Source: Eledone cirrhosa
Lineage: Eukaryota
Direction: 5' to 3'
NCBI GenBank assembly: GCA_964016885.1
Contig: OZ024746.1
Location: 64,666,001-64,730,000 of the forward strand
DNA: 64,000 nt
Shown: positions 50,400 to 51,072 of the stretch, one piece after another
Numbering within the stretch: position 1 is the first letter of the stretch
Layout: each line of letters starts with the position of its first letter
The notes under the pieces: generated by a model
The model's database searches: none
What the model saw: the letters and a program-made list of their open reading frames with translations, nothing else
Told to the model about the DNA's origin: nothing
Made by a program: the position numbers and the translations under genes

Positions 50400-51072
50400 T
50401 GAAAGACATAAAATAAGAAAATTTAAAAAAAATTTAAAATTAACTTACTTACTAAATTTTCACTCCAACTAATTAGTTTCTGTAATGGGATAAAGATAGT
50501 TACGTAATATAACCATCGAGAATTCATTACGTCATCAGGGAGTCTATTCTCAGCTAAGTCTCCAGGCAATGCGCGGACACTAGGGACTCATATAAAAATA
50601 ATAATAATTCGGTGGATGGAACAGCTAGCGGGGACTGGATTCCATGCACTGAAAAAGTTCGCTGTCTCTGGTCAAATGGCAGATTCTAAAGAATCAATCA
50701 CGTGACACTGAGGCTAGTCGGAAGGAGTGGGATGGTAAGATGACAGAAGCCTACTACCACACCACTGAATTAGTAGTGGATTTGGCAGGTTTGCTCAACA
50801 AATAAATAATTTGGAGATAAATATAGAGAATTAGTATATCTACCAACATATGCGTACAGATGTACACTAATGCTAGCAAATACATGAGTTATGTCATAGT
50901 ACCTAGGTGGTTCAATGCAGGAGGATGCAGGAGGATGCAGAACAATTATATGAAAGACGTAAAATAAGAAAATTTTAAAAAAATTAAAAATTAACTTACT
51001 TACTAAATTTTCACTCCAACTAATTAGTTTCTGTAATGGGATAAAGATAGTTACGTAATATAACCATCGAGA
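50400..51072 (-). mobile_element. Retrozyme-like or non-autonomous Penelope-like element with 122-bp direct terminal repeats (period 551 bp)
   Basis: 50400-50521 and 50951-51072 are near-identical (about 3 mismatches). The element is flanked by (TA)n, contains the hammerhead at 50462-50543 and has no recognisable protein ORF. Confidence 0.7.
50462..50543 (-). ncRNA. Type I hammerhead ribozyme with an extended stem II
   Basis: Minus strand reads actcc-CTGATGA-c gtaatg [inner hairpin gatggtta/taactatc] cattac a-GAAA-ctaattag-TT|ggagt. Stem III is the palindrome ACTAATTAGT, the triplet is GUU and the predicted cut lies between 50467 and 50466. Confidence 0.82.

What the first reader, a model, noticed from the sequence alone, without database searches (positions are those of the whole stretch)
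50400..51072. 551-nt retrozyme-like unit: full hammerhead in one terminal repeat, its 3' half in the other
Seen: 122-bp direct repeats 551 bp apart. On the minus strand the upstream repeat holds only GAAA, helix III, GUU and GGAGU, while the downstream end holds the complete ribozyme (CTGATGA core, unusually long branched helix II, 10-nt palindromic helix III). Inference: a transcript has two equivalent cleavage sites (51018/51017 and 50467/50466). It could release a 551-nt monomer able to circularise, as described for retrozymes, and the locus looks like a 1.2-mer reverse-transcribed from such a circle.
Basis: partly seen in the sequence, partly recalled or inferred. Interest (0 to 1): 0.82.

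Follow-up and report, generated by a model that had tools for sequence, protein, structure and literature searches.

The report
Long-armed hammerhead retrozyme with Penelope ends
This is one copy of an abundant, protein-free repeat of about 545 bases in an animal genome; it carries a predicted self-cutting RNA motif with an unusually long arm, and its copies end at two fixed sites, each followed by a small predicted hairpin, which likely mark where a Penelope-type jumping-gene enzyme starts copying the RNA into DNA.

Summary
In detail: 126-nt repeats 551 nt apart, one complete type I hammerhead, cut sites as stated. The locus is a 5'-truncated, 1.2-unit copy of a young non-coding family (about 543 nt; 2,582 search candidates) in a (TA)n run, antisense in an intron.

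Across 54 insertions, 82 of 88 3' ends fall at two internal sites (+66 and about +190 after the cut), nearly all running into (TA)n. Of 29 classifiable two-armed insertions, 28 use one site per arm. Tandem units share private variants. This is the Penelope-like (PLE) 'tail' footprint, so trans-mobilisation by a PLE is likely; a circular template fits but is not shown.

Helix II (51 nt, two stems) covaries and recurs in four other repeat families. A bulged hairpin follows the start sites in these families and is a candidate reverse-transcriptase signal.

No autonomous parent was found in 210 PLE-selected loci. One RNA run holds the family, at a level that read-through could explain. Cleavage and circles are untested.

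Verdict: new variant of a known class (non-LTR retrozyme). This scan has noted similar two-armed families before on other DNA.

The parts
50401..51072 (-). Whole insertion: unit positions 497-551, then 1-551, then 1-66 (1.2 units, 5'-truncated)
50467..51017 (-). Cut-to-cut unit, 551 nt, non-coding (longest ATG frame in the tandem form 102 aa), about 36% G+C, folds better than 100 of 100 shuffles (z -4.45)
50947..51072 (-). Upstream repeat: inner hairpin and 3' strand of helix II, GAAA, palindrome, GUU, GGAGU; no CUGAUGA
50396..50521 (-). Downstream repeat (last 5 nt merge with the TA run)
50462..50543 (-). Complete type I hammerhead: helix I 50543-50539 with 50466-50462
50532..50538 (-). Catalytic core CUGAUGA
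50481..50531 (-). 51-nt helix II region: unpaired C, 6-bp stem (50530-50525 with 50487-50482), 7x7 loop, 9-bp hairpin (50517-50495), unpaired A
50468..50477 (-). 10-nt palindrome: 3-bp helix III as monomer, 10-bp helix III between two copies
   Evidence: sequence
50466..50467 (-). Predicted cut site, downstream (after GUU)
   Evidence: sequence; hammerhead consensus (established knowledge)
51017..51018 (-). Predicted cut site, upstream
   Evidence: sequence
50947..50952 (-). Site 1 (unit +66, followed by AUAUA): inferred reverse-transcription start; this copy's own 3' end is the same site in the next unit (50401)
50910..50943 (-). Predicted bulged hairpin after site 1 (GUUC-UG...CA-UU-GAAC); holds this copy's 10-nt duplication
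50821..50828 (-). Site 2 (unit about +190 to +196, followed by AUAU): second inferred start
50794..50816 (-). Predicted bulged hairpin after site 2 (CUC-CAAAU...AUUUG-UU-GAG)
50384..50400 (.). (TA)n target run at the element's 3' end
51073..51080 (.). Short (TA)n at the element's 5' end; a target-site duplication cannot be read
51954..52636 (+). Host exon downstream; spliced to 53657, with an upstream exon near 11559, so the element lies antisense in an intron of about 40 kb

Best explanation
The locus is a 5'-truncated 1.2-unit copy of an abundant non-coding hammerhead repeat whose copies end at two fixed internal sites next to (TA)n runs, and it was likely written into DNA in trans by a Penelope-like (PLE) reverse transcriptase-endonuclease, probably from a circular or multimeric RNA. 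Shown from sequence: abundance, youth, tandem head-to-tail units, variable 5' ends, two fixed 3' ends, TA targets, one site per arm in two-armed insertions, covariation in the hammerhead. Inferred steps: (1) tandem loci are transcribed; (2) the hammerheads cut after GUU, most readily as a pair through the 10-bp palindrome, while a lone copy tends to fold with its core masked, which would keep a ligated circle intact; (3) a PLE protein, probably a dimer, binds the bulged hairpin 3' of each start site, nicks both strands of a (TA)n run, and primes each nick on the AUAU at site 1 or site 2; (4) each enzyme runs back through the ribozyme junction for up to several units and the two cDNAs are joined 5' to 5'. 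Odds: PLE-mobilised non-autonomous element 0.9; ribozyme active 0.75; both arms from one RNA 0.7; template a circle 0.55; hairpin is the enzyme's signal 0.5.
For: Abundance and age: 2,582 first-look candidates, 40 scored, the 29 best other loci 94-96% identical; 35 distinct units average 96%. Ends: 54 loci, 88 arm ends: 42 at site 1, 40 at site 2, 6 elsewhere; 81 of those 82 touch a TA run, against 29% of random window positions. Two-armed: 28 of 34 pair site 1 with site 2, 1 has site 1 twice, 5 have an unclassified end (28 of 29 against a half, p 1e-7). The same pairing holds in the 523-nt sister family (13 of 17) and in unrelated 459-nt (7 of 7) and 689-nt (6 of 7) families. Partial tandems, 5' inversion, a tail at one end and TA targets are PLE features (PMC8557442); two internal starts were shown in vitro for an anole PLE (PMC11167929). 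One template: units within a locus differ by 0.016 per site (18 pairs) against 0.040 between loci (388 pairs); sister family 0.007 (72) against 0.029 (456); the inverted arm shares the private variants in L173, L010 and L006. Read-through: 14 of 30 unselected arms pass the cut site. Ribozyme: 7 of 23 pairs change on both sides in 8 chosen variants, reached by 1 of 500 shuffles; 93% of cells paired against 35-45% when slid. In L119 both arms begin at the predicted cut, as if the template's 5' end lay there. Hairpin: after site 1 in 5 of 5 families and after site 2 in 3 of 4, with a U-A to C-G change between families, and also after the end site of two unrelated elements not used to define it (L062, L230). 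Coding PLEs of this genome show the same TA targets and two-site ends.
Against: No autonomous element with this sequence or this exact hairpin was found in 210 loci picked by PLE-domain searches; each search scored only 150 of 10,000-50,000 candidates. The youngest coding family (150 of 150 rows 96-100% identical) has different tail hairpins and a shorter tail. The hairpin descriptor was fitted after seeing five families. It misses site 2 of the 459-nt family, and RNAfold does not give it as the best fold for site 1 of this copy or site 2 of the sister family. The anole PLE used uncut RNA, started at a site not homologous to the target, and no reads ended at its cut site, so neither cleavage nor a circle is required. 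The lowest-energy fold of the ribozyme masks the core, helix II opens with a C-A mismatch, and 8 of 9 Xenopus retrozyme dimers did not cut in vitro. In the one RNA run, summed depth on the family is only about 1-7 times that of the single-copy host exons despite thousands of copies, which read-through could explain. The excess of 5' ends at the cut (7 of 30, 1.9 expected) is confounded by short arms and is absent in three other families. Within-locus similarity would also follow from DNA-level duplication or a homogeneous tandem master.
Confidence: 0.78

Rival explanations
1. Same PLE-driven element, but copied from long uncut or partly cut linear transcripts of tandem master loci; the hammerhead is a passenger or acts late, and no circle is involved.
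For: Uncut RNA was the main substrate for the anole PLE in vitro. L119, with both arms starting at the cut, fits a linear template with a cut 5' end. The RNA signal is modest. Homogeneous arrays exist that could act as masters (L173, L171).
Against: Arrays at different loci each carry their own shared variants (L173, L171, L172), which a few masters would not give unless many single variants were each multiplied at insertion. Circles are shown for coral, mussel and axolotl retrozymes (PMC7229834).
Confidence: 0.35
2. The unit is the pseudo-LTR end of a long coding PLE, and the copies are its 5'-truncated insertions.
For: All insertion features are those of PLEs. The ribozyme has the PLE-type extra base before helix II and a palindromic helix III (PMC4209133). 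Retrozymes are reported to derive from pLTRs.
Against: Upstream of the ribozyme, copies run into the previous unit, up to 5 or more units. Nine PLE proteins gave no match to the unit. PLE remnants lay within 10 of 49 loci; none overlapped the element, and the two nearest upstream (L114, L116) were read and are separated from it by a TA run. In the 6 of 210 PLE loci that held the unit it was not joined to a reading frame.
Confidence: 0.07
3. A satellite-like repeat spread by DNA-level duplication, with a decayed or chance ribozyme motif.
For: Some arrays show repeating unit patterns that suggest later local duplication (L171). No Rfam hammerhead hit.
Against: Dispersed copies with fixed 3' ends, variable 5' ends, inverted arms and TA targets; compensatory changes in helices I and II; 0 motif hits in 200 control windows.
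Confidence: 0.03

Closest known systems
Metazoan non-LTR retrozymes (Cervera and de la Pena 2020, PMC7229834, parts 2-4 of 6 read, supplement unreadable; Li, Clavereau and Pollet 2026, 10.64898/2026.07.22.740005, parts 1-3 of 5 read, supplements closed)
   Same: Non-coding tandem units, type I hammerhead, low G+C, strongly self-paired unit, high copy number, coexisting PLEs, proposed PLE origin.
   Different: Unit longer than the 170-400 nt circles shown (but inside the 51-972 nt range of Li et al.). Helix II region is 51 nt with two stems instead of about 4 bp. The parts read do not describe fixed two-site ends, two-armed insertions or a start-site hairpin. Cleavage and circles are shown there and untested here.
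Endonuclease-positive Penelope-like elements (Craig et al. 2021, PMC8557442, passages, section 6 and supplement rows read; Cervera and de la Pena 2014, PMC4209133, parts 1-2 of 4 read)
   Same: Partial tandems, 5' truncation, inverted 5' copy, a tail at one end only, (TA)n targets, hammerhead with an extra base before helix II and palindromic helix III.
   Different: No reverse transcriptase or GIY-YIG frame. Tail about 125 nt rather than 30-40 nt. Much longer helix II; Craig's 'HHR_half_core' label (35-50 nt spacers, listed for an Octopus Naiad) may hide similar motifs, but this was not verified.
Poseidon element of Anolis, PAc (Frangieh et al. 2024, PMC11167929, parts 1-2 of 4 read)
   Same: Two internal start sites downstream of the ribozyme that define the genomic ends; both strands nicked and extended; predicted dimer.
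   Different: There the starts are adjacent, inside the reading frame, in an AC-rich stem-loop and not homologous to the target. Here they are about 125 nt apart, each at an AUAU matching the target, and one is used per arm.
Plant LTR retrozymes (as described; the 2016 paper seen only as a search listing)
   Same: Ribozyme-flanked non-coding unit proposed to move through a circle.
   Different: Type III ribozyme, true LTRs, primer-binding site, polypurine tract and 4-bp target duplication there; type I ribozyme and ragged 5' ends here.

Membership tests
Metazoan non-LTR retrozyme | Type I hammerhead in each unit | tested here: met
Metazoan non-LTR retrozyme | Head-to-tail tandem units; two consecutive complete ribozymes (Li et al. 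criterion for 'active') | tested here: met
   Met by the family (L013, L020, L025, L030, L173). This locus alone has one complete ribozyme and would not count as active by that rule.
Metazoan non-LTR retrozyme | Non-coding | tested here: met
   Longest ATG frame 102 aa; no match to 9 PLE proteins. No Pfam scan of the short frames was run.
Metazoan non-LTR retrozyme | G+C under 50% and a strongly self-paired unit | tested here: met
   About 36% G+C (base counts); z -4.45, 0 of 100 shuffles fold as well
Metazoan non-LTR retrozyme | Self-cleavage of transcripts | not testable with these tools
   Only indirect: covariation and one locus whose two arms start at the cut
Metazoan non-LTR retrozyme | Abundant unit-length circular RNA | tested here: inconclusive
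   One spliced-RNA run covers the whole unit as contigs; contigs cannot show strand, ends or circles, and the depth is modest
Autonomous PLE (Neptune, Hydra, Penelope/Poseidon, Naiad) | Reverse transcriptase and GIY-YIG reading frame | tested here: not met
Autonomous PLE (Neptune, Hydra, Penelope/Poseidon, Naiad) | Partial tandem, 5' truncation, 5' inversion, tail at one end | tested here: met
Autonomous PLE (Neptune, Hydra, Penelope/Poseidon, Naiad) | (TA)n target preference | tested here: met
   81 of 82 fixed ends against 29% background
Non-autonomous derivative of a named PLE family | Sequence similarity to the pseudo-LTR of a coding family | tested here: inconclusive
   None in 210 loci, but each search scored only 150 candidates
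Plant LTR retrozyme | Type III hammerhead in true LTRs | tested here: not met
   Type I topology; repeat length varies from copy to copy
Plant LTR retrozyme | Primer-binding site, polypurine tract, 4-bp target duplication | not tested
   Not searched; target duplications cannot be read inside TA runs

The most novel reading that the evidence does not exclude
A group of retrozymes in this genome, unrelated in sequence, share a two-part address for PLE enzymes: AUAU plus a UU-bulged hairpin, present twice per unit. A PLE dimer would bind both hairpins on one RNA circle, prime both strands of a (TA)n break, and roll round the circle in two arms. The long two-stem helix II would mark a ribozyme subtype that size-limited searches miss. 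This would give the RNA signal for PLE internal initiation and genomic evidence for circle-templated retrotransposition.
Probability: 0.35. Interest if true: 0.75.

Novelty: new variant of a known kind. Interest (0 to 1): 0.55.

Why it matters
How retrozymes return to the genome, and how PLEs choose their internal start sites, are proposed but not shown in the papers read. This family gives a short non-coding substrate with exact predictions: two start sites, one per strand, each next to a defined hairpin, and a defined target. It can be tested with purified PLE protein on linear against circular RNA. It also shows a ribozyme form that the Rfam models missed here, carried by thousands of copies. 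The class itself is known, and this copy has no sign of a host function.

Tried and rejected
1. Rfam scan: no hammerhead among 85 matches.
2. Sequencing-run search: no holder was on record as RNA. One run later proved to be spliced RNA.
3. Search for the autonomous partner: GIY-YIG family search and four protein searches of the genome, 210 loci inspected. None carried this unit as its own end.
4. L069 looked at first like a coding element ending in this unit; a long TA run separates the two.
5. Naiad origin, prompted by the 'half core' label in PMC8557442: a short motif search gave 19 matches against 7 control matches; of 9 translated, one was a badly decayed Naiad-like remnant. Rejected as the present driver, on a narrow test.
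6. A Hydra-like family (L226, L260-L289) seemed to end in a long-helix ribozyme. Only 3 of 30 loci had it, two of them identical duplicates, so it is a separate insertion.
7. L114, with a Hydra-like element just upstream on the same strand: that element has its own ribozyme and TA end.
8. Excess of 5' ends at the cut site: 7 of 30 against 1.9 expected in this family, but 1 of 17, 0 of 7 and 0 of 6 in three others, and confounded by a peak of 50-80-nt arms. Not used as evidence, apart from the single locus L119.
9. No excess of A-to-G changes among 35 units (18 A>G against 36 T>C, 38 C>T and 25 G>A columns).
10. The first chance control for the ribozyme was faulty and was redone.
11. Literature: searches for octopus or cephalopod hammerheads and retrozymes, twin priming with Penelope and circular RNA, non-autonomous Hydra and extended stem II listed no paper on this family, judged from titles and abstract starts. 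The library lacks most subscription journals and Repbase, and two supplements could not be read.

Full report
Observation. The repeat is real: 50396-50521 and 50947-51072, 126 nt, 98% identical, 551 apart. On the minus strand the downstream end reads helix I (ACUCC), CUGAUGA from 50538, 51 nt, GAAA, a 10-nt palindrome, GUU, GGAGU. A descriptor for this fold hits once in the window and never in 200 resampled windows. Rfam did not detect it among 85 matches. Helix II is an unpaired C, a 6-bp stem, a 7x7 loop, a 9-bp hairpin and an unpaired A. The cut-to-cut unit folds better than all 100 shuffles. The element sits in a TA run, antisense in an intron of about 40 kb; the host exons are fixed by a spliced contig and an upstream exon near 11559. 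The 3.0-Gb genome is probably an octopus; that is inferred from its size, its repeat content and earlier scan notes, not from a call.

Family. The genome search gave 2,582 first-look candidates, of which 40 were scored; the best 29 other loci are 94-96% identical. A ribozyme-only query gave 1,964 candidates. In a DNA run, summed depth on the unit is of the order of 10,000 times that of single-copy sequence; the tool warns this is no copy number. Thirty-five distinct units are 530-551 nt long and 96% alike. A 523-nt sister family, 73% identical, has 2,408 candidates and arrays of 10 units.

Insertion footprint. I pooled 49 non-redundant loci from the two searches (11 overlapping loci dropped) with 5 others: one array fetched on purpose and four met beside PLEs. 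Of 88 arm ends, 42 lie at unit +66, 40 near +190 and 6 elsewhere; 81 of the 82 touch a TA run, against 29% of random positions. The 5' ends are scattered over the unit. Thirty-four insertions have two arms joined 5' to 5': 28 pair site 1 with site 2, 1 has site 1 twice, and 5 have an unclassified end. A second way of calling arms gave 27 of 32 for this family, 13 of 17 for the sister family, and 7 of 7 and 6 of 7 for two unrelated families. Both sites are followed in the unit by AUAU, matching the target. The first search favoured full-length copies; the second did not constrain the 3' end and gave the same two sites.

These are the marks of PLE integration: partial tandems, an inverted truncated copy, a tail at one end and TA targets (PMC8557442). 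Two internal starts, and extension of both strands, were shown in vitro for an anole PLE (PMC11167929). Coding PLEs in this genome behave the same way: a very young Neptune-like family and a Hydra-like family each end at two sites in TA runs. The Neptune label rests on the zinc-finger linker described; the Hydra label is from my recall of the endonuclease motif.

One template. Units within a locus differ less than units between loci (0.016 against 0.040; sister family 0.007 against 0.029), and inverted arms share private variants. Fourteen of 30 unselected arms read through the cut site. A fully cut linear unit would give arms of only 66 or 190 nt, so the template was a circle or an uncut multimer. 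The data do not separate the two. In L119 both arms start at the cut, which suggests that cleavage happens there at least sometimes; the wider excess of 5' ends near the cut is confounded and does not recur in three other families.

Ribozyme. In 8 variants that I chose for their differences, 7 of 23 pairs change on both sides (1 of 500 shuffles) and 93% of cells pair, against 35-45% for slid partners; the structure was taken from the window copy, which favours it. The best fold of a lone ribozyme pairs the core with loop 3; the active form is 2.5 kcal/mol higher. In the 677-nt transcript, the downstream core acting on the upstream site through the palindrome costs 3.5 kcal/mol and the monomer form 8.6. 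This fits dimer-dependent cutting as described for animal type I hammerheads. The long helix II is not unique: families of 523, 459-467, 483 and 689 nt, and single fragments, have 48-53-nt inserts with palindromic or near-palindromic loop 3.

Start-site hairpin. A few bases after site 1, all five families have YUC, two pairs, a loop, a two-base 3' bulge and GAR. The outer stem is GUUC/GAAC in four families and GCUC/GAGC in the fifth. The same form follows site 2 in three of the four families where site 2 is known. It also follows the end site in two unrelated short-helix elements not used to define it (L062, L230). The descriptor was fitted after the fact, the hairpins are weak, and RNAfold does not give them at every site. 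The nearest coding relative in form is the Hydra-like family of L290-L319: GUU triplet, AAUU palindrome, a mismatch at the base of helix II, and a one-base-bulged CUC/GAG hairpin after its first end. That is resemblance, not sequence homology.

Partner search. In 210 loci chosen by PLE-domain searches, the unit appeared six times and was never joined to a reading frame. Among 49 family loci, 10 had PLE remnants nearby; none overlapped the element, and the two nearest upstream were separated from it by TA runs.

RNA. No holder was on record as RNA. Run X4 is spliced RNA and covers the whole unit at summed depth of about 85-520 in most bins, against 70-107 for host exons. With thousands of copies this could be read-through. 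The library type is unknown and circles may have been excluded. It is one sample, as contigs.

Verdict. The element works like a non-LTR retrozyme moved by a PLE and meets the sequence-level tests for that class; cleavage and circles are untested. The class and its PLE link are in print (PMC7229834; 10.64898/2026.07.22.740005). What the papers read do not describe is the long two-stem helix II, the strict one-site-per-arm rule and the shared start-site hairpin. Earlier notes of this scan report two-armed families and long helix II on other DNA; I had recorded both before looking (notes). A look-up by sequence returned nothing for this unit. Interest 0.55; new variant of a known kind.

Noticed in passing
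L081-L110 (e.g. G000:C2:412776360): Very young Neptune-like PLE family: 150 of 150 rows 96-100% identical, many with a 775-aa open frame; ribozyme core variant U3-A8; two 3' ends about 65 nt apart into TA. A good candidate for an active PLE protein.
   Followed up: partly
L290-L319: Hydra-like PLE family with a short-helix hammerhead, two ends about 65 nt apart and a one-base-bulged hairpin after the first end.
   Followed up: partly
L260-L289, about 150-200 nt after the reading frame: A second Hydra-like family in which no hammerhead was detected; it has a conserved short 3' segment before the TA run that may be another ribozyme or signal.
   Followed up: no
L141-L170; L201-L220; L181-L200; L180: Four more long-helix-II hammerhead repeat families (523, 459-467, 689, 483 nt); the first three have 1,700-2,400 search candidates each.
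   Followed up: partly
L230:5709-7800; L062:882-1700; L068:6900-7170: Longer non-coding TA-inserted elements (up to about 2 kb) with short-helix hammerheads and the same start-site hairpin.
   Followed up: partly
L119:2043-2044: Both arms of an insertion begin exactly at the predicted ribozyme cut, joined by one base.
   Followed up: yes
L002-L030 and L111-L140, site-2 ends: Many site-2 ends carry expanded (CT)n before the TA run, as if the enzyme slipped on the unit's CUCU when starting; site-1 ends do not.
   Followed up: no
L245 (G000:C2:81325451): Badly decayed Naiad-like remnant.
   Followed up: partly
window 11559-54103 (+): Host gene with the end of an RNA-recognition motif split by a 40-kb intron, followed by polyglutamine-rich exons; DAZAP1/Musashi-like by recall only.
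   Followed up: partly
window 33355-34050 (-): 231-aa open frame resembling the start of a piggyBac-like transposase (recalled resemblance, not searched).
   Followed up: no
window 10000-28000: Very AT-rich stretch (11-19% G+C) with strong strand skew inside the intron.
   Followed up: no
window 49740-49830 and 50312-50392: A second, older duplication 562-563 nt apart just left of the element's TA run, apparently unrelated to it.
   Followed up: no
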